Positions 40,013 through 58,796 of a DNA stretch of 64,000 bases are shown here, one piece after another; position 1 is the stretch's first letter; each line of letters begins with the position of its first letter. This DNA comes from an uncultured virus (IMG/VR IMGVR_UViG_3300042560_002070) (lineage: Duplodnaviria > Heunggongvirae > Uroviricota > Caudoviricetes). The stretch lies in IMG/VR virus record IMGVR_UViG_3300042560_002070. One strand, 5' to 3'. The notes beneath the pieces are model-generated. The model searched no databases, was not told the origin of the DNA, and worked only from the letters and a program-made list of their open reading frames with translations. The position numbers and the translations under genes were made by a program.

Positions 40013-40036
40013 CATACTAATCAGTTTATGTTTAAC

Positions 40037-41005: not shown

Positions 41006-41032
41006 GGTTGCCCTTCCGTAGTAGTGACAACC

Positions 41033-41227: not shown

Positions 41228-41342
41228 AGTTTGGCTCCAATGTGAATGAGATAGTTGGTTGATCGAATTGATATGTAACCGTTGCCCTGGCTACATGACA
41301 GCCAGAACAGAGAATCAATGTTAGTAGGGCGATCCATCGCAT
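41082..41342 (-). CDS. Possible small lipoprotein
   Basis: MRWIALLTLILCSGC lipobox-like signal; 3' end overlaps next gene. Confidence 0.45.
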   Translation of the reverse strand: MRWIALLTLILCSGCHVARATVTYQFDQPTISFTLEPNYDRQVLHRDNRQDADRSSHRGSQGQWLDRNQPTNKQTSLLRNEQTINQ

Positions 41343-41363
41343 GATGCTATCCTTACCTTATAC

Positions 41364-41549
41364 TTATCGCATGAAAACAAAAGTCGATGCCAAGTTATTC
41401 ACAAAATCGTTTCGTTCATCTAAAGTTTGAAACTCTTTGGAGTGATAGAAGTTTGACCCGCGAAAGGCATAGTTGACATAGAACTTCCCATCCCTCTCGA
41501 AAAAGTAGTACCTGTCACGCTGATACCAAGGGGTGTCACGTTTGCTCAT
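41364..41549 (-). CDS. Hypothetical protein
   Basis: 61 aa, ATGA overlap. Confidence 0.6.
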   Translation of the reverse strand: MSKRDTPWYQRDRYYFFERDGKFYVNYAFRGSNFYHSKEFQTLDERNDFVNNLASTFVFMR

Positions 41550-41878
41550 ACTTCCCTTATCCTATCTAAGACATCACAAGCATCGAGTAATGCTTCGTGA
41601 TTGGTTTTGTTTGACAGAAGCTGCTCGTCAAGTGGGCTGCACTTAGATCTACAAATCTCAAGCAATTCTTTGAGTGAGCAGTAGAGATCCGGTGCTGCTG
41701 CAATGAGGCGAGCGTTGGCATCATCCTCATCTTCATTGAAAGAATCGAAGACTTTGGCTATTGAATAGAGGACTGTTTGTCCTGGCTCCAGTCTCATGCG
41801 ACCAGTCTCAGGAAATATGAAAAACCGATTGTCATTGAAGTCACTTCCTCTATGCCACGGCCCTGGTGTATGGCTCAT
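41546..41878 (-). CDS. Phage early protein, HTPGPW/ANARLIAAAP family
   Basis: Both motifs present. Confidence 0.8.
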   Translation of the reverse strand: MSHTPGPWHRGSDFNDNRFFIFPETGRMRLEPGQTVLYSIAKVFDSFNEDEDDANARLIAAAPDLYCSLKELLEICRSKCSPLDEQLLSNKTNHEALLDACDVLDRIREV

Positions 41879-42117
41879 AACTCACCTGCCTCTCTCAATG
41901 ATGCTTCAATTAACTTACGAACTGCTTCATCAAAATCTACGCTATGCTTTGCTGGTTGCCAGCTACTCAGCACCCACTTCAGTAGTGATATGTCATCTGC
42001 TCTATCAAGTGGACTGAACTCACAAGCCCCTGTCGTACCCATGTGTGCATCCAAAGCTATAGCAAGGACGCTCCTGCCCTTTGCTTTGTGCTCAAACCAT
42101 TCAGGTCTGTATGCCAT
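41875..42117 (-). CDS. Hypothetical protein
   Basis: Coupled ORF. Confidence 0.6.
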   Translation of the reverse strand: MAYRPEWFEHKAKGRSVLAIALDAHMGTTGACEFSPLDRADDISLLKWVLSSWQPAKHSVDFDEAVRKLIEASLREAGEL

Positions 42118-42394
42118 TGTGCTTCCTCCAAGTATTAAGAATAGATTCGATGGTAACGTACATCGGTAGAGTCTTATAGAAGATCACCGTTTCTTTGCCG
42201 TTGATGCGAATCTCGTAGATGTGATTACTTTTGAGTACCTTGTTGGCAATGCTGAGTATGTCACTAGCCAGTGATAGCGGAGACTTCTCACAATCCTCTG
42301 GCATGTTGCTGCGAATGATTCTCTTCAATTCATTGCCCGTGTCATTGCAAATCAGACCTCGGTTGTCGAGCTGAACTAAGAGTGGCTCCATCAT
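42101..42394 (-). CDS. Hypothetical protein
   Basis: Coupled ORF. Confidence 0.6.
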   Translation of the reverse strand: MMEPLLVQLDNRGLICNDTGNELKRIIRSNMPEDCEKSPLSLASDILSIANKVLKSNHIYEIRINGKETVIFYKTLPMYVTIESILNTWRKHNGIQT

Positions 42395-43263
42395 ACTGGC
42401 TCCTCCGCTAATCTATTGGTTCCACAAATCTCATTGAACTTGTCAAGCAGATCCTGACGCAAGAACTCCAGGTGCATGTTTCCGTTAAGGAACCACTTTG
42501 CATGGAAGTAATCAGTCGATGCTGACTGTTGCTTGCTGTGGTTTGCTAATGTGATTGCATCCACAAGCGGCCCGCCGTAACCCTTCACCTGTCCTTTCCC
42601 ATCAAGCAGGTGCATGATGTTATCCAGTGCGGTGAGGTGAGGCTGAAGAGTATGACTAAGACCGCCGATGGTAGTGCTGTCGCCGTACTTCCATGTGCGG
42701 AATGCGTATGAACGAATGAGTTTCTTCTCCAACTTAAACGTGTGCTTCTCGTTGGTCTTGTACTTACTGTACGCACGATGCGGCTTCCAGTACTCGTACT
42801 CTTCAAAGATCGCTTCATGCAAAAATGACTCAGCGTTCTCGATGAACGACATAAGAACATCCACGATTGTGGTAGGATTGATAGGCGGAAGCGTTTCCCT
42901 TACGCCATCGACAACGATCGAACCTTTCTCTAGTAACTCATCGAGCTGCTTTACCCGCTTGCTTGACATGAGTTTACGGATGCTCAGCTTGTCAACCAAG
43001 ATTCGCCATGCGTCTAGGTGTAGAGCGTGCTCTACATCCTGTGCCGCACGTTCTTCACAGACGTTCTGTAAATTGCTGCGACCACTGTTGGGCGTAGTGT
43101 ACAGATCAAAACCACGCTGACTCTTGAACTCATTTCCCAGAATCGTATAAGCATCTCGAAGAGTTCCCATTGCCTCGATGACTCTCGCCACTTGCTGCTC
43201 GTATACAGCAGCCAGTCGTGAAGCAGTGGTGTACTCTACCATTTCGGTTGATTCAACTATCAT
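42391..43263 (-). CDS. DUF4942-like protein
   Basis: LDGK, TDYFHAKWFLNGNMHLEF, DLLDKFN C-terminal signature. Confidence 0.75.
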   Translation of the reverse strand: MIVESTEMVEYTTASRLAAVYEQQVARVIEAMGTLRDAYTILGNEFKSQRGFDLYTTPNSGRSNLQNVCEERAAQDVEHALHLDAWRILVDKLSIRKLMSSKRVKQLDELLEKGSIVVDGVRETLPPINPTTIVDVLMSFIENAESFLHEAIFEEYEYWKPHRAYSKYKTNEKHTFKLEKKLIRSYAFRTWKYGDSTTIGGLSHTLQPHLTALDNIMHLLDGKGQVKGYGGPLVDAITLANHSKQQSASTDYFHAKWFLNGNMHLEFLRQDLLDKFNEICGTNRLAEEPV

Positions 43264-43309
43264 TTAACTATCTCCACTAAAAGAAAAGGGACAGCCACCT
43301 GCTGCCCCA

Positions 43310-43350
43310 CCGTATACCACCGAGCCCCGAAAATTTTCGCATCATCAAGA
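43310..43350 (-). promoter_or_regulatory. Repeated promoter-like element, copy 2 of 7
   Basis: TCTTGATGATGCGAAA-N16-GGTATACGG then hairpin and U-run. Confidence 0.7.
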
Positions 43351-43527
43351 TGTATGAGCCAAGATCATAGCGTTAGCTTTTCTCAGACTGTCATACTGCT
43401 GAGGTGTGACAGACCCGCCCTTGCGTATCCAGTCTCTTGCGTCGTCGAGTGCATGGCGGGCTGACTCAACATCGCCTACTTCAAGATGTTCGTAGATCAG
43501 TTTGATAGTTGCTTCAATGTCCATCAT
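43345..43527 (-). CDS. Hypothetical protein
   Basis: 60 aa, WIRKGG. Confidence 0.6.
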   Translation of the reverse strand: MMDIEATIKLIYEHLEVGDVESARHALDDARDWIRKGGSVTPQQYDSLRKANAMILAHTS

Positions 43528-43867
43528 TCATCTCCAGGTTGTCATCTTCTCCGCATACCATTGTGTGCAAGCTTTGTTTCAGTATTGACGGATAGAAGTG
43601 CCAGCTCCAGCTAAAGTATTGCTCGACGATGTAGTCATACTTGAATGCGATCTCATTTAGTTTTGTCAGTGTTAGGTCGTGTCTATCTGGCTTGCGGTAT
43701 CCATTGAGTAGTTCATGAAGCAGACCCTCTGCGCACATCGTTAGGTGTGCGTTATGCTCGACGCTTTCTCTTGTTCTCCACTGTTCTTGATCGTAAAAGC
43801 TTACGTCTTTGTACTTCTTAGTACGCCTACGCAACTCGGCCAGCAGTCGATGTAAATTAGTTGTCAT
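43514..43867 (-). CDS. Hypothetical protein
   Basis: Start MTTNLH after AGGAG. Confidence 0.65.
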   Translation of the reverse strand: MTTNLHRLLAELRRRTKKYKDVSFYDQEQWRTRESVEHNAHLTMCAEGLLHELLNGYRKPDRHDLTLTKLNEIAFKYDYIVEQYFSWSWHFYPSILKQSLHTMVCGEDDNLEMNDGH

Positions 43868-44333
43868 GCCCGACTCCTTCTGTGTTGTGTGTTGTAGTTC
43901 TTTTCTCAAGCATCTCTCTCATGTCATCGATCTCGTCGTTAACTTGAACAATAAGACCCGTCAGTAAATCCGTTGCAACTTCCGATAGGTAGTCGTTGAT
44001 AGAGTCGGGGTAGTTTACTTCGATACGCGACAAACAATCCCATGACTTTAGTCGATACCCATTCAGGAATGCCGTTACCTGAATCCATCCGTACCACCAT
44101 TCGTCTTTGAACCATGCTTTCCTGGCAATCATTAATCGTTGGAACTGTTCATCGTTGCATCCGGTAACTGACTGATCTGGATTGTGTGAATCATCGTCAT
44201 CGATTTCGGATTGATTGTCGTGCCTGATTGTGGCTCGATATTCGACTCCCTTGTGGGTTGTCGTTACGTAATCATCTGGGCACACAAAAGATTTGAAATT
44301 TGGGAAGCGTACTTCCTGCTCATTGGTTGTCAT
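43857..44333 (-). CDS. Hypothetical phage protein
   Basis: AWFKDEWWY motif; RBS GAGG. Confidence 0.7.
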   Translation of the reverse strand: MTTNEQEVRFPNFKSFVCPDDYVTTTHKGVEYRATIRHDNQSEIDDDDSHNPDQSVTGCNDEQFQRLMIARKAWFKDEWWYGWIQVTAFLNGYRLKSWDCLSRIEVNYPDSINDYLSEVATDLLTGLIVQVNDEIDDMREMLEKRTTTHNTEGVGHDN

Positions 44334-47804: not shown

Positions 47805-47962
47805 ACATCTTGTCGGATAAGCAGTCTTTACTAATCAGACTGGCTGCTTAGTAAATCCCTATGTAAAGGTTGACCTATGCGTAAAAGTTAGGGTTTCCCT
47901 ATAGATATCTTTATTGTTGACGTTATCTAGCATCATCAACCGTCTGATTAGTTACATGTATA

Positions 47963-48003
47963 TCTTGATAATGCGGAAAATTTCGGTGCTCGCAGGACTA
48001 TGG
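47963..48003 (+). promoter_or_regulatory. Repeated promoter-like element, copy 5 of 7
   Basis: TCTTGATAATGCGGAA-N16-GGACTATGG then hairpin. Confidence 0.7.
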
Positions 48004-48055
48004 GTGATGGGGCACGCTGCCCCAGCCGTTAGTTTCAATCTTTGGAGTTACACTT

Positions 48056-48376
48056 ATGAGTAAAGTTGCTGCGAACTTCGCTGAGTTTGATGTTTTGTTG
48101 ACAGGCTTTTATTCTGGCATTGGCGGTGTCCGTACCGTTACTCTTACAGAAGACGAGGGCTTCGACATGTCGATGCTCGACCCGAAGGATAAGACTGATG
48201 TCATGGCCCTGCTTGATTTGATCTTTAAGTATGGGCAAAACGATTTCCAGCCCAGAGATTGCCGGTCTGTTTCCGTTGGCGACATCATTCTTGTCAAGCT
48301 AAACAAAAAGGATTGCCCGCTGCGATTCTATAAAGTCCAGAGTTCTGGTTTCCTTTTACTTCGCCGTTCGAGATAG
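48056..48376 (+). CDS. YodL-like domain protein
   Basis: RSVSVGDII, FYKV, GF motif. Confidence 0.6.
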   Translation: MSKVAANFAEFDVLLTGFYSGIGGVRTVTLTEDEGFDMSMLDPKDKTDVMALLDLIFKYGQNDFQPRDCRSVSVGDIILVKLNKKDCPLRFYKVQSSGFLLLRRSR

Positions 48377-48401
48377 ATAGGTAGATCAAGGTATATAGAT
48401 A

Positions 48402-48442
48402 TCTTGATAATGCGGAAAATTTTCGCCGTTGTCGGTACATGG
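48402..48442 (+). promoter_or_regulatory. Repeated promoter-like element, copy 6 of 7
   Basis: TCTTGATAATGCGGAA-N16-GGTACATGG then 12-bp GC hairpin and T7. Confidence 0.75.
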
Positions 48443-48493
48443 GTGGCGGGGCACTTCGCTCCGCTGCCCTTTTTTTATTAGGAGTATGCATTT

Positions 48494-49054
48494 ATGCACC
48501 GTTACAAGAATGACGACTCGGTTTTGGCGGACATGGACTACGTTGGCTTAGTCAATAAGACTAATTACCATCCCATCGTGAAAGAGATGATGATCGAGCA
48601 ACTCAAGAAAGTTGTTCCTGCTCCCGAAAAAGTGAAGGCCCCACAGCACCAGGTATACAAGTTCAAAAAAGGTGATTGGACTTATACCATTGGCTGGAGC
48701 GTCTCCAAGATCACCGTCGAGAACGACAAGGTTATCTACGATCGAGACACTAACACCCGCGAAGTAGTTACCGAGCCTCGCAAAATCCGCATTCAACAAG
48801 CGGTTATGATTTGTACCCATAGCAATGGCCACCAATCCATGCGACGACTCACTGCGATTCCTCGACGTATCAAGGTTCGTGGTAAATTCAAGATTCAACT
48901 TAAGAAAACCTTTACCGATTGCCGTCAAGGTGGCCTTGGCTCCGGTCTTGATAAACACCAGTTAGCCAAGACGCTCCCTGGCAAACTCACCAAACGAGAG
49001 CGAACACTACTGGTCAGTTGGTTGATCTTCGCTCACAGTCAGATCAGAAGCTAG
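48494..49054 (+). CDS. Hypothetical basic protein
   Basis: 186 aa, RBS AGGAG. Confidence 0.75.
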   Translation: MHRYKNDDSVLADMDYVGLVNKTNYHPIVKEMMIEQLKKVVPAPEKVKAPQHQVYKFKKGDWTYTIGWSVSKITVENDKVIYDRDTNTREVVTEPRKIRIQQAVMICTHSNGHQSMRRLTAIPRRIKVRGKFKIQLKKTFTDCRQGGLGSGLDKHQLAKTLPGKLTKRERTLLVSWLIFAHSQIRS

Positions 49055-49212
49055 TTCGTAGGGCGACGGAGCCAGTCATCTGTAAAGGTGCTGGCTCTGT
49101 TTCCCTATGCGCGCGATAAAGGTCAGATCATCTGACTGACTGTAAAGGTTCTCCCTATTGAGCCTGGCTGCCGCATTTCCCTATGCGCCTGATAAAATCA
49201 GACAAACAGTTA

Positions 49213-49253
49213 TCTTGATAATGCCGAAAATTTTTGGCCAAATCGGTATAGGG
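49213..49253 (+). promoter_or_regulatory. Repeated promoter-like element, copy 7 of 7
   Basis: TCTTGATAATGCCGAA-N16-GGTATAGGG. Confidence 0.75.
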
Positions 49254-49349
49254 TGGCGGACTTGACAACGTCGAAACGCCGATATACTCAGTAGTCCGAA
49301 CCCAACGTAGGGACGGCACGACAACGACACTAGCAGAGAGGACAGACCA

Positions 49350-49784
49350 ATGAAGACAAGGGGCAGGATTGCCCGCATGAGACGGATTGACCGGATCGAC
49401 TTGGAATTGACGATCCAAGCCTACATGAAAGCAGGTTTAAAGGAGCCCCAAGCAGTCCGAGAGAGCCTAAAGGCACTAGGCCGAAACACTGGCTCAAAGA
49501 AACAGAGACCACTTGACCGAGACTTCCCACAAACAACGGAGGAAGATTACCCACAAACACCAATCGAAGAGTATCGAATAGACCATATCAACGGTCTGAA
49601 GATTCGCTTTGCAATGGCGAAACGATACCCGCAAGCCTACCGCCGGTGGAAAGACAACCCCACCGACCGGAGAGCGCTGAAGGTAGCGACACTAGTCGCG
49701 ACACTCATCGCAGACGATTTAGACGAACCATATCGGACTGCTGCGAAACGTATCGCGGCAGCAAAGACAGTCAAACGAAGTTAA
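49350..49784 (+). CDS. Hypothetical basic protein
   Basis: 144 aa, RBS GAGGA. Confidence 0.65.
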   Translation: MKTRGRIARMRRIDRIDLELTIQAYMKAGLKEPQAVRESLKALGRNTGSKKQRPLDRDFPQTTEEDYPQTPIEEYRIDHINGLKIRFAMAKRYPQAYRRWKDNPTDRRALKVATLVATLIADDLDEPYRTAAKRIAAAKTVKRS

Positions 49785-49805
49785 TACACACAAGGACAAC
49801 TTAAG

Positions 49806-50306
49806 ATGTTCACGTTAAAGCAAATCGCAGATCTTCAAGCAGCCGGTGAAATTAGCATGACCGAGGCCGTCAAACTTCGCATTGAAGCGCGACAAGCCTT
49901 AGAGACAGGAAAGACAACCAAGCAGCCAGCCAAGCAGCAGCAGAAGAAGCAGCCAGCAGCAGCCGATGAAGAAGCAGACATCGAAGCGCCACCGAAGAAG
50001 AAACCCGCAGCAAAGCAGCCAGCCAAGCAGGCGAAACCCGCAGCGAAGCAGCAGCAGCAGAAGAAGCAGCCAGCAGCAGAAGCAGCCCGAAGCGAAGTCA
50101 TCAAGCTTGACATCCCAGGAGCGGAGGATATCGAGTACTGTCCGACCGCAGTAATTTACCTAGGGCCAGGGAAATACGAGGGAACGCACTGTTTCAAGAT
50201 CGGCCGAGAATACGCCGTCCGCAGCGTCGACGTTTGGAATCACTTGGCCGATGAACTGTACAGCGAACGAGTTGGGGCGTTCATCCGAGACATGATCGCA
50301 GAGTGA
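49806..50306 (+). CDS. Protein with K/Q/P/A-rich histone-H1-like linker
   Basis: KQPAKQ repeats; RBS AAGGA. Confidence 0.75.
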   Translation: MFTLKQIADLQAAGEISMTEAVKLRIEARQALETGKTTKQPAKQQQKKQPAAADEEADIEAPPKKKPAAKQPAKQAKPAAKQQQQKKQPAAEAARSEVIKLDIPGAEDIEYCPTAVIYLGPGKYEGTHCFKIGREYAVRSVDVWNHLADELYSERVGAFIRDMIAE

Positions 50307-50337
50307 GCAGCAGCTTGACAGCTTGACGACCGACACG

Positions 50338-50370
50338 GCGCCGGAGGGGAAACCTTTCGGCGCTTTTTTT
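50338..50370 (+). terminator. Intrinsic terminator
   Basis: GCGCCGGAGG...CCTTTCGGCGC TTTTTTT. Confidence 0.8.
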
Positions 50371-50721
50371 GTTTAATGGTTTTCAATTTACAAAACGTCA
50401 AACCAGATACCTACCGGAAAAATAGCAAACAACGTAAACCGTTACAGAGCAAGGACTTAGAGACGACAGGGGGTGCTAGACCCCCAGAGCATCCGAGGGG
50501 ACGTAGTCTCTTCCCCTTCCGGATTTTTACACTCTATAGAATCTGGCCCCCTTTGTGGCGTAGTCGTTATTTAGATGGCGATGACCGGGGAAGTTAATGA
50601 TTGATCCTTGCTTCTACTTTTTCTTTTCGTTAGCATTGAGGTAGTTAAGTCCCTACGTATTGGCTACCTTACATGCTTATAGGAGCCAGGAAGTCGCGTA
50701 CACTCCTCGGATAGGTGTTTT

Positions 50722-51036
50722 ATGGTGAAGGTTGGAGACGAGTTAGCTTTTAGGCTTGGTTTTTCTGGGAACTACGTCATTCGTAGGGTTGAGAAGATTA
50801 CGCCGAGTGGTCGGATTAAGTGTGGTTCTTATGAGCTTAATGCGGATTTGAGTGTTCGGGGTAAGGTTGCTCGTGGTTGCTGGGGGCCATATCGTGCGGA
50901 GCCAGTGACGGCGGAGATACGTGAGAATGTTGAGCGGAATAAGCTTCTGGCTCGTGTTACGAATGCGAATTGGTTTAGTTTGGATACGGTGTCACTTGGT
51001 TTGGTGGTGAGTATCTTGGATATGGAGGAGAAGTGA
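50722..51036 (+). CDS. Hypothetical phage protein
   Basis: VKVGD and VEKITPSGRI pattern. Confidence 0.7.
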   Translation: MVKVGDELAFRLGFSGNYVIRRVEKITPSGRIKCGSYELNADLSVRGKVARGCWGPYRAEPVTAEIRENVERNKLLARVTNANWFSLDTVSLGLVVSILDMEEK

Positions 51037-51539
51037 TGGATAGGACATTTGCTGGATTTTGGCGTGATGGGGCGGAGGTGCAACCGGAAGGCAAGCACTT
51101 TGATTCGGATTGCATGATTATTGCTAAGCACAAAGACACTAAAGAGTTAGATATTTGCAATATTGTTTATAAAGGCTGGGAAAGCGTCTACTGGCTAGAC
51201 ACAACAACGCCTACGGAACTCTCTCCACAAGAGGCGTTTGAGTTGCTGAAGGTAATCAATCCGGATACTGAAAAAATCGAAGATGATAGTGGTAATTGGG
51301 TTTCAATCAATCCAGGTTCCGACATCATCAACTGGGGCAACACTACTGAGTATCCGTCAAAGCAATGCTGGCGAGTGCCAACCGATGCGGACAAGAAGAA
51401 GAAGTGTCGAGTCAGCAATGACAACGATTGCTTTTTCATGGAACTAACCTTTATTGCAACATTTAACGGTGTTTACATTGTTGCAAATAATGAGCACAAA
51501 ATTACATGCTGGAATTATTGTGAGGTCTTGGATTCCTAG
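51033..51539 (+). CDS. Hypothetical phage protein
   Basis: GTGA overlap; WRVPTDAD...WNYCEV module. Confidence 0.7.
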   Translation: MMDRTFAGFWRDGAEVQPEGKHFDSDCMIIAKHKDTKELDICNIVYKGWESVYWLDTTTPTELSPQEAFELLKVINPDTEKIEDDSGNWVSINPGSDIINWGNTTEYPSKQCWRVPTDADKKKKCRVSNDNDCFFMELTFIATFNGVYIVANNEHKITCWNYCEVLDS

Positions 51540-51808
51540 TGCCCTGGCAGTAGCGTAGGTAGTGCATACAATACCCCCTCTTTTGTCAAAATGTGCGATA
51601 TTTGCAGGGAAAAGTGTGGTTGCTCCACCGTATGGATAGAGTGATTTTTAATGAAAATACCCTGTTATTCGTTACAAGGCTTGCTTTTGGGTTGGGGAAG
51701 TGGGTTTTTGCTTGACTGTAGGGTAGGGATAACGCTACGATAGGCTGTCACTACTGGCTTTTGGCTGTTTGGGTGGTGTGTTGGCTGTAGGGATAGAAGA
51801 GGAAGTGT

Positions 51809-52318
51809 ATGGCTGAGTACGTAGAGCGATATTGGCGAGATGCTAAGAGGGTAGATGCGATTGCGGAGCAGCCAATGGTGGCTAGGTTCCGTGATCAGGA
51901 GTGGGATAAGTGGTATCAGAGTCAGCTTTATGGTTGGGAGCGTGGTGATACGCATTGCTGGGAGAGTCGCAATGGTCACGGCTGGCGAATGTGTCAGGTG
52001 TATGTCGCTCCCGACCCAGGTGAGGGTTGGGTGCTACTTGATCCGGACAAGGATAAGCCAGCGGAAGGTGATGAGTGCTGGGATTCCATGGACCGAAAAT
52101 GGCGAAACAGATTCCTTGAGTCGAATCCGTTCCATCCTACTGGTTTCTATCGTCGCCGCATTAAGCCGAACATTCTGGAAACTCAGAATAGTTGCGAGGA
52201 AAAAGAATACATCTATCGTCCAAAAGGTGGTGATGAAGTCGTTTTTCCTAGTGGACTTCGAGTACTCGTGACCGAGAAAGGCTTTGAGGTAAGGCAATGT
52301 AAGGAGAGTGCAAGATGA
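51809..52318 (+). CDS. Hypothetical phage protein with PDPGEGW...RRRI module
   Basis: RBS GAGGA; Trp-rich modules. Confidence 0.75.
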   Translation: MAEYVERYWRDAKRVDAIAEQPMVARFRDQEWDKWYQSQLYGWERGDTHCWESRNGHGWRMCQVYVAPDPGEGWVLLDPDKDKPAEGDECWDSMDRKWRNRFLESNPFHPTGFYRRRIKPNILETQNSCEEKEYIYRPKGGDEVVFPSGLRVLVTEKGFEVRQCKESAR

Positions 52319-52833
52319 AGCTTGAGGTGGGCAGGAAGTACAAGCGACATTCAGATATCGTTGAAGTTAAGTTCGTCGATTGCGATGGCGACGGCTGGGG
52401 ATTATCAACAAATGGTATCTGCAAATGTGTCATCTTAGATTATGGTTGGGAAGAAGTCACCGACAAACCCGACCCTGGCGAAGGTTGGAGATTGCTAGAA
52501 CCGGATGAGGAGGTGCATGTTGGCGATGAATGGTTTGGCCCGGCATGGGGCAAGTGGATAGCTACTGTCTCTAAAGGATTTAAGCCTAACCAATATACAA
52601 ACCTCACATTTCGTCGCCGCATCGCTCCGCAGTACGTGCCCTACACTTGGGACGATAGAGAGGAGCTGAGGGGACGGTGGTATCGACCGAAGGACAAGAA
52701 GCAGCATGAGCGTCAAGTTACTACATTTAATGTATATGAATACAATTTTTTGATTAACGGATGGACAGCAGAGCGTTTTTTGAAAAATTACGAATGGATC
52801 GACGGTAGCCCATGCGGAAAGAGGGTGGTGTAG
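52315..52833 (+). CDS. Hypothetical phage protein with PDPGEGW...RRRI module
   Basis: ATGA overlap; shares module with upstream gene. Confidence 0.75.
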   Translation: MKLEVGRKYKRHSDIVEVKFVDCDGDGWGLSTNGICKCVILDYGWEEVTDKPDPGEGWRLLEPDEEVHVGDEWFGPAWGKWIATVSKGFKPNQYTNLTFRRRIAPQYVPYTWDDREELRGRWYRPKDKKQHERQVTTFNVYEYNFLINGWTAERFLKNYEWIDGSPCGKRVV

Positions 52834-52835
52834 TT

Positions 52836-53183
52836 ATGACGATGCCGCATTTGATGAATTGCGACCATTCTGATTCGGGATGGTGCTTGGATTGCGTAAA
52901 GAAATTGCAAGATCAATGGGAAGAAAAAGTCAATCTGGCAACCTCTTGCCGATTACAGCATACCGGCGAGGAATGTAAGGTCATCGGTGAGCTTGTCAGT
53001 TATCTCGAAGCTTGGTCAGGATCAACAGATTGTCGCGATTTGGTGCTCGATGGAAAGCTAGAGGTTTATTGGAACGATAGTGTCATGGGTACAATCGAAG
53101 GCGATGGTGACGGTAGCTTTAACTATCATCCTCTCGCATTCGGTCAGCGTGGCCAAAACGAACGACACGGTAAAAACATTTAA
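52836..53183 (+). CDS. Hypothetical protein ending at an attC-like site
   Basis: MPHLMNCDH...WCLDCV N-terminus; stop immediately before CGATAAC. Confidence 0.7.
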   Translation: MTMPHLMNCDHSDSGWCLDCVKKLQDQWEEKVNLATSCRLQHTGEECKVIGELVSYLEAWSGSTDCRDLVLDGKLEVYWNDSVMGTIEGDGDGSFNYHPLAFGQRGQNERHGKNI

Positions 53184-53273
53184 CGATAACGCAATGCGTA
53201 ACCGAGTCGCCGCCGGTAAACTCTCCATTTCAATAACCGTTGTCGGCGACTTCGGTACAACATTTTGTTCTCT
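53184..53273 (+). other. attC-like recombination site, intact
   Basis: CGATAAC...GTTCTCT ends; ACCGAGTCGCCG / CGGCGACTTCGGT inverted repeat with an extrahelical base. Confidence 0.65.
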
Positions 53274-53356
53274 GGCTTTTCGGACGGAGGACAAGGAAAG
53301 ACGTTAGGTAAAAGCATGTATTGTCCACCACCAGAAAAGAAGGAAGTTAGATACCG

Positions 53357-53854
53357 ATGAAAACAGTAGGCGACATTATTGATTTGATTTTGAGCAACCA
53401 AAAGTCTCAGGACGAACTAGGGCACCATGCGTTGCATTTGATGGACGCACGCGAAGCTGGCAGCACAACCGAAATTGGATTGGATGAAGTGCCGCGAGAA
53501 ACGCCAATCGAAGAGGTTGAGCATCATCACGTTCGGCGTGGGTGCAAGTGCTACAAGTTCGCGTATGACATGGGCGGTCGACTTGGAGCTATTCCGTTCA
53601 AAGATGCGTTCGCGAAGTACGGCGAAGTCAGCGTGCGAACAGGCAAGCACGGAACGGAATTGTATATCGTCGGTGATTCGAGCGACGTTGACGGACGCGA
53701 CGAGAACACGATTTACGTGATTGTTGGAAAGCACACGAACCGCAAGACCGGCGAAGAACTGGACGCAGTGTTTACGTGGCACCCAGGCGAGCCAATGCCA
53801 ACGCTCGAAGACGGAATCACGAACGAAACCGCCGTCAAAGTGGACATCGCCTAA
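53357..53854 (+). CDS. Hypothetical protein in putative integron cassette
   Basis: 165 aa; VFTWHPGEP motif; flanked by attC-like sites. Confidence 0.75.
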   Translation: MKTVGDIIDLILSNQKSQDELGHHALHLMDAREAGSTTEIGLDEVPRETPIEEVEHHHVRRGCKCYKFAYDMGGRLGAIPFKDAFAKYGEVSVRTGKHGTELYIVGDSSDVDGRDENTIYVIVGKHTNRKTGEELDAVFTWHPGEPMPTLEDGITNETAVKVDIA

Positions 53855-53859
53855 AGTCC

Positions 53860-53942
53860 AAAGAACGCACAAAATCACCGTGTTACCGCCGGTGAGTATC
53901 GTTGAGGAAACAGCCGGACGGCAACTCCGGTGCATTTTTTTA
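53860..53942 (+). other. attC-like site with damaged right end
   Basis: AAAGAAC, then AAAATCACCGTGTTACCGCCGG / CCGGACGGCAACTCCGGTGCATTTT. Confidence 0.55.
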
Positions 53943-53981
53943 GGTGATGAAAGCACGAAAACAATTTGGAGAGGTGGTGTG

Positions 53982-54197
53982 ATGAGTGACAACAACGAAC
54001 AAGCGTTTCCGAGCGACCGTTTTTCGGAGACAGGCATGACTCTCCGAGATTACTTTGCCGCAAAAGCAATGGCAGCGATGCTGTCGATTGAGCAAGTGCA
54101 TCTGGATCACGGCGAAACAGAGATTGCAACGTGGGCGTATCAACAGGCCGAAGCGATGATGGAAGCACGAAAACAAAAGAAAGATGAGGTGGTGTGA
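53982..54197 (+). CDS. Phage protein of the GMTLRDYFAAKAM family
   Basis: AFP, GMTLRDYFAAKAM, AY..AEAMMEAR; RBS GAGGTG. Confidence 0.8.
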   Translation: MSDNNEQAFPSDRFSETGMTLRDYFAAKAMAAMLSIEQVHLDHGETEIATWAYQQAEAMMEARKQKKDEVV

Positions 54198-54514
54198 TGA
54201 GTGAGAATAGGCTGCTAGTGAAAATGAGGTTTAGTTATCGCAACCGTGACGGCTCGGAGCGATCAACTATGCGTGCGGAAAAGCGTTTTATTGAAGAGTT
54301 CGTTCCGCAAGCAGGGACTGCAATTCGAGTTGAAAGCGAAACATGCGAGGTTCGCGGAAGGGTTTCTGATGTATGGTGGAGAACCCAAGCCGAGTCAGAC
54401 AAGATAATCGTTCACACCGATGAGCAATTTTACTCTGATGGGAATGTCGACGAATCTAAGAGGGAGCATATCGAATTGCTGGAAGCGAATGGATGGACGG
54501 TCTCATCTCGATAA
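54194..54514 (+). CDS. Hypothetical protein
   Basis: 106 aa; stop codon lies within CGATAAC. Confidence 0.7.
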   Translation: MMSENRLLVKMRFSYRNRDGSERSTMRAEKRFIEEFVPQAGTAIRVESETCEVRGRVSDVWWRTQAESDKIIVHTDEQFYSDGNVDESKREHIELLEANGWTVSSR

Positions 54515-54616
54515 CTCTTGCTTTCACCGACTCGAAAGGAAATAGGTAAACACGATGGGTAACAACAGCGACAATTGAGCATAGATGGGCTCAGGTATAT
54601 CTGAGAAGGATGACAG

Positions 54617-55498
54617 ATGATTCATTACATCAACCTTAGGTCGCAGCGACGGCTTTACGAGTATGTAACTGACGTAGGTGGTGCGAGCAATTTTACCTCT
54701 CGCCAGTTAGCTTTTCGAGCTGCTAGGTCGGGGATGTCTTGTGGTGATGTTCTTTTCTATTGCCCCAACCTTGCGTGCCACGAGATGTATTACTGCATTG
54801 GCTCCGGTACCCGCAAGCAGTTGGTGCCATCTATCAGTAGTCGCTTTGATATTAGCTGTTTCGAGGAAGAGTATAGGATGTATCTTCGTGAGATAGTTAT
54901 GTCAGTTGAAGAGGCGAGGCAAGTGTATGGTCGCTGTTGGTGTGTTTACGCAGATCTTGGTTACTTAAGGCCGGAGGGTAGTGCTTATGTTGTCGATGAA
55001 TCGAGAAACGTGCCGCAGTGGTCTGGTGTGGAACTAGAGGGTTTGGGTGCGCAAGAGTTTGAGGCATCTGATTTTACACGTCCGATGATGTTCGGTATTA
55101 GCCGATTGCCTGACACGATAGATTCTAATGTTTTTTTCGCTAGGTCTCTTTATGACTGTAATTGGCAGACTTATGACCGCTATTGCGTTCTCACGCCGAC
55201 AGGTTTTTGTTTAGTGCGACCCACTAAGATCACCTCAGCGATGATGAGGGTCTTTGATGATATCTATCTGGCTAACAGGTTTATTGTTTACGAGCGAGCG
55301 ATTGATATTTATTGTTCGATAGCGATAGCAGCGCAAGATAAGGTTCGGATTTTTTTGCGTAGCCTGCAAGAGCAGATACAGTGCATGAACTTCCTTGGCT
55401 TCGATAGCACACCGTTGTCGCAGCGAGAGGCAGTGTCATCGCCTTCTGTGCCGTATGTAGTTAGACCTAATTTGAACACAAGGATGGTGAAGCTATGA
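54617..55498 (+). CDS. Hypothetical protein
   Basis: 293-aa ORF, RBS AAGGA. Confidence 0.7.
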   Translation: MIHYINLRSQRRLYEYVTDVGGASNFTSRQLAFRAARSGMSCGDVLFYCPNLACHEMYYCIGSGTRKQLVPSISSRFDISCFEEEYRMYLREIVMSVEEARQVYGRCWCVYADLGYLRPEGSAYVVDESRNVPQWSGVELEGLGAQEFEASDFTRPMMFGISRLPDTIDSNVFFARSLYDCNWQTYDRYCVLTPTGFCLVRPTKITSAMMRVFDDIYLANRFIVYERAIDIYCSIAIAAQDKVRIFLRSLQEQIQCMNFLGFDSTPLSQREAVSSPSVPYVVRPNLNTRMVKL

Positions 55499-56019
55499 GG
55501 ACTCGCGAAGAAGATCTCCTTTCGTATTTTAGTGCAGTGTATCGAGATTATAACTGGTCAGTCCGGAGGGATTATAGTCGTGATGGGTATGTTGTAACGT
55601 GTACGATGCCGAGTCGGAGCACGGCTTTGTTTGTTAGTTTGGATTCGGATTCTACAGCTCATCACATTGCCGGAGCAGCTAATCGCGCAGTACAAAGCCT
55701 ACTACGCAGCTTCAGTTTCAATGCTGAGGTGCGTCTCGTTGAGTCAATCCTAAGACAACACTTCGTCGGCGTGAATGTCACCCAGAATGCTGATGGCTCG
55801 ATGGTGATTGATCTGGTTGACACTGCTTATGGTTGCACTGGGCAATACCACATCGAGAGTGTAGAGACTATCGTATCGTTTATGATGACTATTTTTTCAG
55901 CGATGCGGCGTAGCCAATCCTATACGGTTTCGCCAGTTACAGTCGAGGAGCCAGTTGTATCGTCACAAGAATATCGCTGTGTCACCTCAGTCATGCTGGA
56001 GCGAAGCGTGACTTTATGA
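55495..56019 (+). CDS. Hypothetical protein
   Basis: 174 aa, ATGA overlap. Confidence 0.7.
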   Translation: MRTREEDLLSYFSAVYRDYNWSVRRDYSRDGYVVTCTMPSRSTALFVSLDSDSTAHHIAGAANRAVQSLLRSFSFNAEVRLVESILRQHFVGVNVTQNADGSMVIDLVDTAYGCTGQYHIESVETIVSFMMTIFSAMRRSQSYTVSPVTVEEPVVSSQEYRCVTSVMLERSVTL

Positions 56020-56090
56020 AAGAGTGTGGTGTCGTGTTCAATCACAACATCACACGTCCTCTAGCTAGACTTCTGTAGAGCGACCGAAGA

Positions 56091-56975
56091 TCAGTTAACG
56101 CTCGGCTTTCCTCTCATGTAAGCCAGTGCTACTCCAGCAGCGCTGACCTGCTTGCTAATACGAGGGTCAAGGTACATCTCTGTGACGCTGCGATCTTTGT
56201 GGTCTAGGACGGCCTGGGCATCCATATCAATGGCATCGCACGCACTGGCTACCGTTCTGCGCAAACGATGGAACTTGCTCTTGCGATCCGTCGATAGGCC
56301 AGCCTTTTTCATCAGTTGACCCCATTTACCCCACAGAAACAATCTATTGAGCGGCCAGTGGAACACCAGCTTATGATCTCTCGGCAGTTGAGCTAGTGCC
56401 TGCATGGTCTCTACACTCAACTGATACTGCCGGTCTCGCCGCTTTCCCTTGCGGTGTTCGGCAGGGATCGTCAGCCAATGAAGCTGTAGCTGTGACCACT
56501 CTATCTGCATCACTGCGCCTATTCTTTCGGCGGTGTCGAGGATGACAAGGAACAAAGCTCGCCAAAAATCCCTGGCTGGTACGTTGCCAATAAAACCTTC
56601 CTCTTGCTCAATCGCTCTCTGGATGGCAAGCAACTCTTCTGGCAGCCAAGCCTGCGGAGTTCGCTTAGGTTCTATCTCGGCTGGCACGTTGGGCCAAATC
56701 TGGAGATAGCCACGCTGACAGGCAAAACGCCAGATCGCCAGGATCTGCGCCCTGTCTTTGTTAACCGTCGCAGCAGCCCGACCACTGGCTCCGACTCGGC
56801 TTAAGTGACGAGCCATTTCCAGGTCGGTTAGGTCACTTAGGAGTGCTTTTCTGCCCAGCGTCTTCTCAAAAGACCGTATCGATAATCGATACAACCGGAC
56901 AGTCTCCTTGCTGCGACCTCGAAGTTTTAGGGGTGTGTAGATTGATTCAAAAAATTCTTGTAGCAACATGGACAT
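56091..56975 (-). CDS. int: Tyrosine recombinase/integrase
   Basis: TAERIG (R), RKGK (K), FHRLRR (HxxR), LDH, TEMYL (Y); SAM-like N-terminal domain. Confidence 0.92.
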   Translation of the reverse strand: MSMLLQEFFESIYTPLKLRGRSKETVRLYRLSIRSFEKTLGRKALLSDLTDLEMARHLSRVGASGRAAATVNKDRAQILAIWRFACQRGYLQIWPNVPAEIEPKRTPQAWLPEELLAIQRAIEQEEGFIGNVPARDFWRALFLVILDTAERIGAVMQIEWSQLQLHWLTIPAEHRKGKRRDRQYQLSVETMQALAQLPRDHKLVFHWPLNRLFLWGKWGQLMKKAGLSTDRKSKFHRLRRTVASACDAIDMDAQAVLDHKDRSVTEMYLDPRISKQVSAAGVALAYMRGKPSVN

Positions 56976-57046
56976 TCTCGCTAGGTAAGGACCAAGAGAG
57001 GATTTCCTAATCTACGCCACAGATAGTGGGGTGAGGGGTAGGGGGT

Positions 57047-57082
57047 AAATTTTTCCAAATTTTCCGAATTTTCCGAATTTTC
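57047..57082 (+). repeat. Four tandem AATTTTCC(G/A)-like units next to attP
   Basis: aaatttttcca aattttccg aattttccg aattttc. Confidence 0.7.
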
Positions 57083-57102
57083 TTCAAGTCCCTTATCCTC
57101 CA
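57083..57102 (+). other. Putative attP core equal to a tRNA 3' end
   Basis: TTCAAGT CCCTT ATCCTCC A = T-loop, T-stem, acceptor strand, discriminator; about 110 bp from integrase start. Confidence 0.75.
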
Positions 57103-57439
57103 CTTTTGGAACCACTACTTATGGTTGGATTAATCTCTCTTTTCGAAACATTTGTTTGAATCCTAGCAGGCTAGGCAAAATAGTCAAGCCTTGAATGCCC
57201 TTTATGGAGGGTTCTGTTGTAAGTACCTAGATTTTCTGGATTGCCTATTATGCCTTTTTGTGTCGCAATGAGGCATCTCCCCGAGTATTGACCATGCAAT
57301 AGTCGGTTCATATCTTTACGCCCGTGGCAAGTCGCTTTTGCGACCGACGACCATTCTTTCGTGGATCATTCTAAGTCAGTGGATGGCAGGCGTTCCACCG
57401 CCCGCAAGCACGCTTTTCTTAGCGTCTAGGAGTACGTCT

Positions 57440-57685
57440 ATGTTTATGCTTCGAGCAGAGCATTTTGTTACGGAGTCAGTCCCTCGCTGTGGCGAAATCA
57501 ACCGCCCATTCTTCGAGTGGCTAGAGTTTTACGAGCAGTTTCTCGGTAAGCCAGCGATACGTCGTGCCAGCGAAATCGTTTGGGAGGAACTTGGTAATCA
57601 AGCAGGAGCAATTTTGTTTGACTCTACTCCAGAGTTCAATGCTAACTTTTTCAATCAAGTTATGGAGAAACTGACCAATGAGTAA
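57440..57685 (+). CDS. Hypothetical protein
   Basis: Start MFMLRAE after AGGAG; TTGACC-N17-TATCTT upstream near 57288. Confidence 0.65.
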   Translation: MFMLRAEHFVTESVPRCGEINRPFFEWLEFYEQFLGKPAIRRASEIVWEELGNQAGAILFDSTPEFNANFFNQVMEKLTNE

Positions 57686-58796
57686 CGCTATCGCCAGGAT
57701 TGTGTACGGCGCGGATGGTAAAGGAGCTATTGCTCGCGTCAATGACGAGGGTGTGATCCATGCTATCAGCAAGAAGGTTCATTTGTCCGCCGACGAAGGC
57801 CAGTGGTATCACATGACAGTGATCAACGCTGCTACCGGGAAGTACGAACAGAAGAAGATTATTACCGCGAAGGGGTATGATTATCTTCGTAGCTTGATTG
57901 GGATCTACTTCACGAGTCCTGACACGATAGTCAATAGCGACGGTCGAGTCGTCGGCAATCCCTACCTGCACGAAAGTAAGGGTATGCTGGAGTTTGTGAA
58001 GCTCAGAGTGATAGGTGCCTGCCGTGGGCCCTCAGGAAATTGGCATGCTCAGGATCTGACGTTCATCTACAACTTTAAGGCTTACCTCGCCAGCGATCTA
58101 TTCGCTAAGTGGCACGATCGCAAAACTGGCACAACTAAGGAATGGGGTCGTCTGGTTAATTCGTTAGCTGCTGCTCCGTGTGCACCGGACAAGATCAGAG
58201 TGCCAGTGTCGATGGGTGTAGAGCTGGAGGTTGACTTGAGCAACTCGGCTGTAATGAGCATTTACCGAGAGCACCTTGAAAAGCAGAAGTTTGCCGAAAG
58301 GAATGCTTATAGCATGGCCTCCAGAAACATTATGCGAAAACTGTTGGGACTTCACTACGTCGACGATGATAATACTGTGACGATTACCGTTTGGCCGCAG
58401 GCAGATAAGGACATTGCCAAGGTCGGCAGCATGGTCGAGCGTAATAAGCAGGGTAGCGTGGTGATCGATGCTGATGTGGTCAAGATAGTACGCGATCAAG
58501 TCGAGGCGACTGAAGAGGATGTTCAGTCTGTCGATGAGCGTGACGATGAGTCTGTTGTTGAGGTCGATGTACCTGAGCCAGCTAAGCCACAGCGCACTAA
58601 GGTGCAGGCGTTAGCGGAGCTGCGTGAGATCATCAATCAGATTCCTGAGAATGACGAAAAGCCTGAGGCTAAGAAAGGGCTTATTAAGGCGGCATTGAAG
58701 TTAGAAGGATTTAGAACGCCTGCTGACTTGACTAAGGATCATGTGACGATTGAGGCGATCGATAAAGTTAAGGATCATTTGAGGATTACGCTATGA
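57678..58796 (+). CDS. Hypothetical protein, possibly a recombination/ssDNA-annealing protein
   Basis: 372 aa, globular N-terminus plus acidic linker; first large gene of a DNA-metabolism operon (function inferred from context only). Confidence 0.6.
   Translation: MSNAIARIVYGADGKGAIARVNDEGVIHAISKKVHLSADEGQWYHMTVINAATGKYEQKKIITAKGYDYLRSLIGIYFTSPDTIVNSDGRVVGNPYLHESKGMLEFVKLRVIGACRGPSGNWHAQDLTFIYNFKAYLASDLFAKWHDRKTGTTKEWGRLVNSLAAAPCAPDKIRVPVSMGVELEVDLSNSAVMSIYREHLEKQKFAERNAYSMASRNIMRKLLGLHYVDDDNTVTITVWPQADKDIAKVGSMVERNKQGSVVIDADVVKIVRDQVEATEEDVQSVDERDDESVVEVDVPEPAKPQRTKVQALAELREIINQIPENDEKPEAKKGLIKAALKLEGFRTPADLTKDHVTIEAIDKVKDHLRITL

What the first reader, a model, noticed from the sequence alone, without database searches (positions are those of the whole stretch)
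53184..54540. Integron-type attC sites and a gene cassette inside a phage accessory region
Site 1 (53184-53273) has AAC...GTT ends and an inner inverted repeat with extrahelical bases, starting right after a stop codon. Site 2 (53860-53942) has the same plan but a lost right end. Site 3 (from 54509, CGATAAC...TTCACCGACTC) is a left half containing the stop codon of ORF 54194. Cassette hallmark: the sequence leaving site 1 (GTTCTCTGG) is the reverse complement of the sequence entering site 2 (CCAAAGAAC) at 8 of 9 positions, as expected if ORF 53357-53854 arrived as a circular cassette. No IntI is in the window. Inference: the phage gains accessory genes through a host integron integrase, linking the cassette pool to phage mosaicism.
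Basis: partly seen in the sequence, partly recalled or inferred. Interest (0 to 1): 0.8.

Follow-up and report, generated by a model that had tools for sequence, protein, structure and literature searches.

The report
Worn integron attC sites in phage
Two hairpin sites and a half-site between small phage genes are worn copies of integron-type recombination sites that form whole gene-cassette arrays in related lake phages, so these phages swap accessory genes the way bacterial integrons do.

Summary
Sites 1 (53184-53273) and 2 (53860-53950) are real, related imperfect hairpins; site 3 (from 54509) is a half-site.

Pattern scans found the same two site types in over 30 uncultivated viral contigs. 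Read on the strand opposite to the genes, those copies show the full attC plan as measured on 17 real attC sites from resistance plasmids. They stand in same-strand arrays of up to 8 per 6 kb, and 5-16 per complete phage genome.

In 48 of 67 neighbouring pairs the outer R-box bases of one site complement the next site's, against 15 of 67 for its own. This is the cassette signature.

A covariance model built only from the phage sites matched 13 places in integron plasmids, all real attC sites on the cassette strand. It scores window site 1 at 50 bits and site 2 at 43 bits, minus strand only.

The window's copies are eroded: site 2 lost one R half, site 1 has a poor L box, site 3 is truncated. 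No IntI was found in the window or in 10 viral records.

Two things change: the strand, and which site belongs to which gene. The integrase remains unidentified.

attC clusters in phages were already reported by Qi et al. 2023.

The parts
52812..53183 (+). ORF (123 aa) of a third, upstream cassette that has lost its own attC. Its cassette start (the TTATCG half of site 1's R') is kept.
   Evidence: 69% identical homologues in L052, L053 and L056. Each abuts, at its 5' end, the same attC type (93-97% identical, same R'' 7-mer). The attC on the 3' side differs between contigs (55-76% identical).
53184..53273 (-). attC site 1, a complete-length type-1 relative. R box 5 of 7 pairs. The second extrahelical A is present. 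The L box is degraded (4 of 7 in the canonical register).
   Evidence: R2 match at 50.0 bits, E 4.6e-11, minus strand; the plus strand scores only 12.8 bits. Fold z -4.3 and -3.1. Geometry. 15 viral stretches carry the same inner stem.
53190..53865 (-). Inferred cassette A: site 1 plus ORF 53357-53854. It is bounded by the AA|C crossover points in the left ends of site 1 and site 2 (plus-strand reading).
   Evidence: Boundaries inferred from the family's cassette signature and from the joint travel of ORF and 5'-side attC. In the window, the outer 4 bases of site 2's R' complement those of site 1's R'' at 3 of 4 positions; site 1's own R' manages 2 of 4 (read).
53357..53854 (+). Cassette ORF, 165 aa, function unknown.
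   Evidence: 7 homologues at 53-100% identity. In L003-L005 the homologue has an attC-type site just upstream on the opposite strand. No Pfam, PHROG, NCBIfam or PADLOC family. Model pLDDT 85.7, no fold match with E <= 0.001.
53860..53950 (-). attC site 2 (type 2). L box, both extrahelical bases and R' are intact. The AAC of R'' is lost, which is the GTT missing after the T-run on the plus strand. On the coding strand it reads as a hairpin followed by T7, so it is terminator-like.
   Evidence: R2 match at 42.8 bits, E 4.2e-9, with the R-box pairs flagged as broken. 16 and 19 viral stretches carry near-identical copies that do have GTT. Terminator scan hit at 53913-53931 plus a T-run.
53866..54514 (-). 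Inferred cassette B: site 2 plus ORFs 53982-54197 and 54194-54514.
   Evidence: Bounded by the R' motifs of site 2 and site 3. In run X3 a contig joins 53186 to 54523, leaving out cassettes A and B together.
53982..54197 (+). ORF, 71 aa, phrog_2201-like. A module widespread among related phages.
   Evidence: PHROG match at 1.2e-17. Homologues in L041 and L047. Contig depth 28-107 here against 5-6 over cassette A.
54194..54514 (+). ORF, 106 aa, unknown. Its TAA stop lies inside site 3's R motif.
   Evidence: no family.
54509..54545 (-). Site 3: the 3' half of an attC (R', 6-base spacer, L', start of the stem). The other arm is missing.
   Evidence: Read and compared with family members. No fold and no R2 match. 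The X3 contig carries the same half with a different R' and spacer.
56091..56975 (-). Tyrosine recombinase (294 aa), context only. It is a generic phage integrase, not an integron integrase.
   Evidence: Pfam PF00589 and PF02899, phrog_1. No TIGR02249 match at E <= 0.01. Against IntI1 only weak local similarity, and nothing aligned to IntI1's extra stretch.

Best explanation
Window 53184-54545 is a decayed cluster of integron-type attC sites without an integron integrase (a CALIN) inside a phage genome. Each cassette holds one or two small genes plus the attC that lies on the genes' 5' side. The genes are antisense to the attC top strand, so the folded, recombining bottom strand is the coding strand.

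Cassettes were gained and lost by structure-specific recombination at the conserved AA|C / G|TT point of the R box. The enzyme is most likely an integron integrase supplied by the host; this step is inferred.

In this particular phage the sites have since eroded. Site 2 can no longer form an R box, site 1 has a weak L box, and site 3 is half gone. They are probably fossils that now serve mainly as RNA hairpins. Site 2, with its U7 tail, probably acts as an intrinsic terminator between early genes.

Shown here: family membership, attC geometry, the cassette signature in relatives, and variable cassette content.

Inferred: the enzyme, present inactivity, and terminator function.
For: 1. Family. 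Pattern scans blind to attC rules found site-2-type copies in 16 and 19 viral stretches and site-1-type copies in 15. The flanks differ outside the AAC and GTT ends.

2. Geometry. 17 real attC sites from class 1 integrons share one plan: R'' of 7, a 5-base spacer (4 in qnrVC1), L'' of 8 with a bulge, L' of 7, a 4-6-base spacer (5 or 6 in 16 of the 17) and R' of 7. Both phage types meet this plan with R 7/7 and L 7/7, but only on the strand opposite to the genes. They also carry a second bulged A about 6 bases further in, as in aadA1.

3. Enrichment. A strict structural detector gave 75 hits in 208 kb of viral loci, with scores up to the maximum of 19. The null gave 28 hits in 3.84 Mb of Markov sequence, none above 17.

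4. Cassette signature. In 67 neighbouring pairs the outer 4 bases of R'(n) fully complement R''(n+1) in 48, against the site's own R''(n) in 15. Staggered beat own in 42 pairs, own beat staggered in 5, and 20 were equal.

5. Covariation. 91.5% of cells are paired and 20 of 25 pairs change on both sides; slid controls reach at most 43%.

6. Reciprocal models. R2 was built from 47 phage sites only. It matched 13 places in 171 kb of integron plasmids, all at cassette junctions on the cassette strand. R1 was built from 4 real attC sites. It matched two phage sites at E 9e-5 and 0.004.

7. Window. R2 scores site 1 at 50.0 bits and site 2 at 42.8 bits, minus strand only.

8. Co-travel. Homologues of ORF 52812-53183 keep the same attC on their 5' side in 3 contigs (93-97% identical), while the 3'-side attC varies (55-76%). 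In 61 of 67 cassettes the longest ORF is antisense to the attC, and it starts inside the attC in 52 of 67.

9. Variable content. A contig of run X3 joins 53186 to 54523 with 12 other letters, skipping both cassettes. Another joins 52863 to 53860.

10. Precedent. Qi et al. 2023 (PMC9892861, sections 2.1 and 3.4 read) found 17 CALINs in 10,705 phage genomes, and 5 of 6 phage attC sites were recombined by IntI1.
Against: No IntI was found. The window's only recombinase is generic. 0 of 10 viral records reach the TIGR02249 cut-off, and 5 of those records are at least 90% complete.

The model made from real attC sites (R1) does not match the window's own sites, even with filters off. My strict detector also misses them. 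Their attC status therefore rests on membership of the phage family.

The R2 training set was picked by a detector modelled on attC geometry, so the reciprocal test is partly circular.

In the phage family the central spacer is partly paired: columns 12-13 pair with 83-84 in 89% of cells. That is more pairing than the class 1 sites I examined.

Site 2 is also a textbook hairpin with a T7 tail.

IntegronFinder's and HattCI's own models could not be run, and no recombination was observed directly.
Confidence: 0.8

Rival explanations
1. The hairpins are attC-like sites served not by an integron integrase but by a phage-encoded recombinase, for example the tyrosine recombinase gene that sits beside the cluster. 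That would make this a phage-owned cassette system that only mimics attC.
For: A tyrosine recombinase gene lies within about 1.5-4 kb of the cluster in the window (56091-56975), in G002 and in G005. No IntI was found in 10 viral records.
Against: These recombinases are not one family. The window's is 26% identical to G005's and has no significant similarity to G002's. 8 of 10 records gave no TIGR02249-related match at all at E <= 0.01. None aligns with IntI1's extra stretch (for the window). Their position next to an accessory region is the usual one for a lysogeny integrase.
Confidence: 0.1
2. The hairpins are only conserved intergenic regulatory elements (intrinsic terminators or stem-loops). 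The mosaicism would then arise from ordinary homologous recombination between these conserved elements, as proposed for promoter-stem-loop modules of T4-type phages (recalled, not read here).
For: Site 2 and all of its relatives keep a T7 run after the stem. The sites lie between genes. In L002 a homologue of the cassette ORF is flanked instead by two near-identical terminator-plus-motif repeats.
Against: This reading does not explain several results. The exact attC geometry and bulges sit on one arm in dozens of sequence-diverse sites. The R-box complementarity is staggered, which needs a fixed crossover point. A model of these sites finds real attC sites, and only those, in plasmids. Most family members have no T-run.
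Confidence: 0.07
3. The elements are miniature palindromic transposable elements that insert between genes.
For: They are about 90-base imperfect palindromes with inverted ends, occur in many copies, and their flanks vary.
Against: No target duplication was seen. The ends pair across the intervening gene rather than within one element. Gene and neighbouring site travel together. No transposase was noticed in the loci, though I made no systematic search.
Confidence: 0.02

Closest known systems
CALINs (clusters of attC sites lacking an integrase) in phage genomes, Qi et al. 2023, Front Microbiol (PMC9892861; abstract and sections 2.1 and 3.4 read)
   Same: attC sites with cassettes inside phage genomes and no IntI nearby. 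attC sites are discussed there as weak terminators. Phage attC sites were shown to be substrates of IntI1.
   Different: That study found 21 of 10,705 deposited phages with integron parts, mostly as small clusters. Here the sites belong to a uniform, roughly 90-base family spread over more than 30 uncultivated viral contigs, with 5-16 sites per complete genome. Genes are antisense to the attC in 61 of 67 cassettes and often start inside it. The two site types have no blastn match in 50,697 deposited phages. I did not see that paper's supplementary tables.
attC sites of mobile class 1 integron cassettes (aadA1, dfrA, blaVIM and others), used here as positive controls
   Same: R box with AAC/GTT, 5- and 6-base spacers, L box of 3 + bulge + 4, a second bulged A, a variable loop, and staggered R halves between neighbours.
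   Different: Gene orientation is opposite. Lengths are uniform (about 88-92 bases). The central spacer is partly paired. The first bulge is mostly G on the top strand, where the class 1 sites examined mostly have C. No attI, Pc or IntI is present.
Sedentary chromosomal integron arrays with homogeneous attC sites, e.g. Vibrio repeats (recalled from general knowledge, not read here)
   Same: Long arrays of short cassettes of unknown function, separated by attC sites of one length class.
   Different: Those arrays sit in a bacterial chromosome next to intI and attI. These sit in phage genomes without either.
Intrinsic (rho-independent) terminators
   Same: On the coding strand site 2 is a GC-rich hairpin followed by T7.
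   Different: It is about 80 bases long, with fixed bulges and AAC/GTT ends. Most family members lack a T-run.

Membership tests
integron attC site | R box: two inverted 7-base halves with the conserved AAC / GTT triplets (Nivina et al. 2016, PMC5027507, passages read) | tested here: inconclusive
   Family: AAC and GTT are invariant in 47 of 47 aligned sites. Window site 1: 5 of 7 pairs. Window site 2: the R'' triplet is lost and the R-box pairs are flagged as broken. Site 3: only R' is left.
integron attC site | L box with an extrahelical base on the L'' arm, in the 3 + bulge + 4 layout seen in the 17 control sites | tested here: inconclusive
   Family types 1 and 2: 7 of 7 pairs with the bulge at position 4, on the strand opposite to the genes. 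Pairs 14-21 with 76-82 are 98-100% paired with compensatory changes. Window site 2 keeps this layout. Window site 1 has only 4 of 7 in the canonical register (read).
integron attC site | A second extrahelical base (T on the bottom strand) a few bases inside the L box, on the same arm | tested here: met
   A bulged A follows 2-3 paired bases after L'' in the controls and in both phage types. It is present in window sites 1 and 2 (alignments). The detector required it, so its constancy in the 58 listed sites is by selection.
integron attC site | Unpaired central spacer between the R and L boxes (5 and 5-6 bases) | tested here: inconclusive
   Spacer lengths of 5 and 6 are as in the controls. However, two of the spacer columns pair in 89% of cells, so the unpaired part is only about 2-3 by 3-4 bases.
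integron attC site | Cassette signature: the outer part of one site's R' complements the next site's R'', because the crossover lies at G|TT | tested here: met
Family: 48 of 67 neighbouring pairs are fully complementary, against 15 of 67 for the site's own halves.
integron attC site | Recognised by an attC covariance model | tested here: inconclusive
   R1 (4 real attC sites) matches two phage family sites at E 9e-5 and 0.004, but not the window's sites. It also missed 6 of 14 unseen real sites. R2 (phage sites only) matches 13 real attC sites and nothing else in 171 kb, plus window sites 1 and 2. IntegronFinder's and HattCI's own models were not available.
integron attC site | Recombined by an integron integrase on the folded bottom strand | not testable with these tools
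   This needs an attC x attI assay. The precedent for other phage attC sites is Qi et al. 2023.
complete integron | intI gene (with the IntI-specific extra domain), attI and Pc next to the array | tested here: not met
   No TIGR02249 match for the window recombinase. 0 of 10 viral records reach the cut-off. attI and Pc were not searched for.
intrinsic terminator | GC-rich hairpin followed directly by a U-run on the transcribed strand | tested here: inconclusive
   Site 2 meets the definition. Site 1 has only TTTTGTT, 6 bases after the stem. Function was not tested, and no RNA run was available.

The most novel reading that the evidence does not exclude
A large group of uncultivated lake phages keeps true integron cassette arrays, with 5-16 attC sites per complete genome and up to about 15% of the genome. 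In these arrays almost every gene is antisense to its attC and starts inside the attC loop, so the coding strand is the recombining strand. Phages would then be a major, overlooked reservoir and shuttle of the integron cassette pool, trading cassettes with host chromosomal integrons through the host's integrase. The attC hairpins would double as RNA-level signals, acting as terminators or as start-site hairpins.
Probability: 0.5. Interest if true: 0.85.

Novelty: new variant of a known kind. Interest (0 to 1): 0.75.

Why it matters
attC clusters in phages have so far been reported as rare: 21 of 10,705 genomes in Qi et al. 2023.

This window led to a family of phages in which cassette arrays are a regular part of the genome, and in which relatives differ by whole cassettes. 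That gives a concrete mechanism for part of phage mosaicism. It also provides a direct route between the bacterial cassette pool and viruses.

The inverted gene orientation, if general, raises a question: how are such cassettes expressed and oriented without the usual promoter-at-attI logic?

The window's own copies show the other end of the story, in which sites decay once they are no longer used.

Tried and rejected
- **Rfam.** No family match in 48000-58000 at E <= 10 apart from two chance rows.
- **blastn against deposited phages.** Window 52000-57200 gave no match.
- **Nearest held record.** G001 (30.7 kb fragment) lacks the region and has no R2 match. The window's own assembly is not held.
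- **Relatives of the ORFs.** Searches in viral contigs for the flanking ORF 52315-52833 and for the cassette ORF gave nothing useful. The two genome-contig hits are 16-residue matches, which I took as chance.
- **First working idea.** I first read the sites as paired terminators and the 8-of-9 match as a by-product of a palindromic consensus. I dropped this once the reverse-strand geometry and the array signature were seen.
- **Aligning real attC sites.** MAFFT alignments of attC sites of unequal length (A4, A5) misplaced the L' halves and were not used. Alignments A7 and A8, made from R1 matches, contained wrong-strand and chance rows and were not used for a model.
- **R1 as a detector.** It is narrow. 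With default filters it found 8 of 14 unseen real sites and nothing in the window.
- **Strict structural detector.** It finds only 8 of the 17 reference attC sites, plus 3 other places in 171 kb, and none of the window's eroded sites. An earlier notebook line saying 12 of 17 was a miscount.
- **Cassette protein.** No PADLOC family. Foldseek against the PDB gave no match with E <= 0.001.
- **Expression.** No RNA holder is listed for the region, so nothing can be said about expression.
- **Read laying.** The joints 52831-54163 and 52863-53989 have short sides or unknown letters in between, so I did not interpret them.
- **Earlier findings of this scan.** Nothing on record.
- **Literature.** Searches for attC arrays in viral contigs or with opposite gene orientation in phages found nothing beyond Qi et al. 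2023.
Full report
**What is in the window**

The region lies in a plus-strand run of small genes (48056-56019) of a phage-like genome. The window also holds a primase, two sliding-clamp genes, a clamp loader, a UvrD-type helicase and a 2797-residue protein with a lysin-like part. A 294-residue tyrosine recombinase sits at 56091-56975 on the minus strand.

- Site 1 (53184-53273) and site 2 (53860-53942) fold much better than shuffled sequence on either strand, and they align with each other end to end.
- Site 3 does not fold.
- Site 2 is followed by seven T and is picked up by a simple terminator scan.
- Rfam has nothing here.

**The sites belong to two widespread families**

I wrote patterns from the inner stems of site 2 and site 1 and scanned IMG/VR.

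- Site-2-type copies turned up in 16 and 19 stretches.
- Site-1-type copies turned up in 15 stretches.

The copies are nearly identical between contigs, while the DNA outside their AAC and GTT ends differs. In relatives, site 2's T-run is followed by GTT.

**Test against real attC sites**

I fetched class 1 integrons from nine resistance plasmids and marked 17 attC sites at cassette junctions. All share one geometry:

- a 7-base R'' ending in AAC
- a 5-base spacer (4 in qnrVC1)
- an 8-base L'' with one bulged base
- a variable middle
- a 7-base L'
- a 4-6-base spacer (5 or 6 in all but qnrVC1)
- a 7-base R' starting with GTT

In most of them a bulged A follows a few paired bases after L'', as read by eye.

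Read on the gene strand, the phage elements fit this geometry only partly (L box 5 of 7). Read on the opposite strand, both types fit completely: R box 7 of 7, L box 7 of 7, a bulge at position 4 of L'', spacers of 5 and 6, and the second bulged A in the same place. By the rule that the bulges lie on the AAC arm of the top strand (Nivina et al. 2016, PMC5027507, passages read), the attC top strand is the window's minus strand. The coding strand is then the recombining bottom strand.

**Arrays and the cassette signature**

A strict detector encoding this geometry gave these results:

| Sequence searched | Size | Hits |
|---|---|---|
| Viral loci | 208 kb | 75, many at the maximum score of 19 |
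| Order-1 Markov null | 3.84 Mb | 28, none above 17 |
| Integron plasmid loci | 171 kb | 8 of the 17 reference sites, plus 3 other places |
| Window | 64 kb | none |

The viral hits are 58 distinct sequences of about 88-92 bases. They stand on one strand in rows 250-1564 bases apart.

I then dropped any requirement on R-box pairing and examined 67 neighbouring pairs.

- The outer four bases of one site's R' are fully complementary to the next site's R'' in 48 pairs.
- They are fully complementary to the site's own R'' in only 15.
- Staggered complementarity was better in 42 pairs, own better in 5, and 20 were equal.

This staggered relation is what a crossover at G|TT leaves behind. The relation is symmetric and does not itself tell the strand.

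The strand follows from three things:

- the arm that carries the bulges
- the finding that in 61 of 67 cassettes the longest ORF is antisense to the attC, begins inside it in 52 and ends within 13 bases of the cassette end in 56 (longest-ORF starts may be placed too far upstream)
- a natural experiment: homologues of ORF 52812-53183 in three contigs keep the same attC at their 5' side (93-97% identical), while the attC at their 3' side varies (55-76%)

**Models**

An alignment of 47 phage sites shows strong covariation. 91.5% of cells are paired, 20 of 25 pairs change on both sides, and slid controls reach at most 43%. The rows were chosen by the detector, which inflates pairing in the L box and the first inner pairs.

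| Test of R2, the covariance model built from this alignment | Result |
|---|---|
| Window site 1, minus strand | 50.0 bits, E 4.6e-11 |
| Window site 2, minus strand | 42.8 bits, E 4.2e-9 |
| Rest of the 64 kb window | nothing (next match 12.8 bits, site 1 plus strand) |
| 171 kb of integron plasmids | 13 matches, each a real attC on the cassette strand (7 are among my 17 reference sites; the rest are further attC at other junctions or repeat copies) |
| 41 loci | 133 matches at E <= 0.001 |
| 32 viral loci | 26 carry two or more sites, up to eight |
| Four near-complete phage genomes (3 at 100%, 1 at 95% by CheckV) | 5, 6, 8 and 16 sites, clustered |

In the other direction, a narrow model from four real attC sites (R1) matched two phage sites at E 9e-5 and 0.004. 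It did not match the window's own sites. R1 also missed 6 of 14 unseen real sites.

**State of the window's copies**

- Site 2 keeps its L box, both bulges and R'. It has lost the triplet of R'', so it cannot form an R box.
- Site 1 has both ends (R box 5 of 7) and the second bulge, but its L box pairs at only 4 of 7 positions in the canonical register.
- Site 3 keeps R', spacer, L' and the start of the stem. The other arm is replaced by unrelated sequence leading into ORF 54617-55498.
- The cassette of ORF 52812-53183 has lost its own attC.

The cluster therefore reads, on the minus strand: site 3 (half), cassette B (two ORFs plus site 2), cassette A (ORF 53357-53854 plus site 1), then a cassette remnant.

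**Variation in nature**

In contigs of other lake metagenomes, one record of run X3 joins 53186 to 54523 with 12 other letters. The 3' end of ORF 52812-53183 then runs straight into a site-3-type attC, and both cassettes are absent. Another record joins 52863 to 53860, the edge of site 2.

Contig depth is 5-6 over cassette A. It is 10-107 over site 2 and ORF 53982-54197, which are evidently shared by many related phages. Gene content at this locus is not fixed.

**The enzyme**

The window's recombinase is a generic phage integrase with no IntI signature. Ten viral records gave no match over the TIGR02249 cut-off, and five of them are at least 90% complete. The recombinases near the arrays are not one family.

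The arrays are therefore CALINs. A host integron integrase is the likeliest agent, but this is inference, and I could not identify the host.

**Known or new**

Qi et al. 2023 (PMC9892861; abstract and sections 2.1 and 3.4 read, supplements not seen) reported integron parts in 21 of 10,705 phage genomes, among them 17 CALINs. They also showed that IntI1 recombines five of six phage attC sites. The kind is therefore known.

What differs here:

- the size and uniformity of the family
- its spread over uncultivated phages
- the inverted gene orientation, with gene starts inside the attC
- the dual look of type 2 as a terminator

The two site types have no blastn match in 50,697 deposited phage records. 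My literature searches found no description of such arrays.

**Function of the cassette genes**

This remains unknown. The 165-residue protein has seven homologues, no family match, a confident model (pLDDT 85.7) and no fold match.

Noticed in passing
window 47960-47983, 48399-48422, 49211-49234: A 23-24-base motif occurs three times at 96-100% identity in the intergenic regions ahead of the first plus-strand genes. Short repeated words stand around it. It may be a repeated early promoter or operator.
   Followed up: no
window 53945-53989 and 54157-54204: A direct repeat of about 45 bases in two blocks (95% and 100% identical). The sequence ahead of ORF 53982, including its ribosome site and first codons, repeats at the 3' end of the same ORF, where ORF 54194 starts. 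This looks like a recombination scar or a module boundary inside cassette B.
   Followed up: partly
window 48441-48469 and 50337-50364: Two strong terminator-like hairpins (12 pairs followed by T7) lie between plus-strand genes. They are unrelated to the attC family.
   Followed up: no
window 49806-50306: An ORF rich in K, Q, A and P with exact internal DNA repeats of 30 and 18 bases (49933-49962 with 50050-50079; 49920-49937 with 50013-50030).
   Followed up: no
window 54552-54575: An eight-codon ORF follows a ribosome-site-like AAAGGAAA (54532-54539) inside site 3. This is where family members carry the start of the cassette gene, so it looks like the stump of a lost gene (compared).
   Followed up: partly
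L002 (metagenome contig), about 90-160 and 780-850: A 59%-identical homologue of the cassette ORF is flanked on both sides by near-identical copies of a different element: a terminator hairpin plus a conserved downstream motif, not an attC.
   Followed up: partly
G009 (contig behind L060), 34462-44039: A complete 62.5 kb phage genome with terminal repeats carries 16 attC-type sites in two oppositely oriented arrays, 4 on + and 12 on -, spanning about 9.6 kb.
   Followed up: partly
window 28460-29536 and 37757-38884: Two separate genes both match the sliding-clamp family phrog_947.
   Followed up: no
window 54617-56019: The two ORFs between site 3 and the integrase have no homologue or family in any search made. 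They lie in a stretch whose AT skew differs from that of the cassette region.
   Followed up: no
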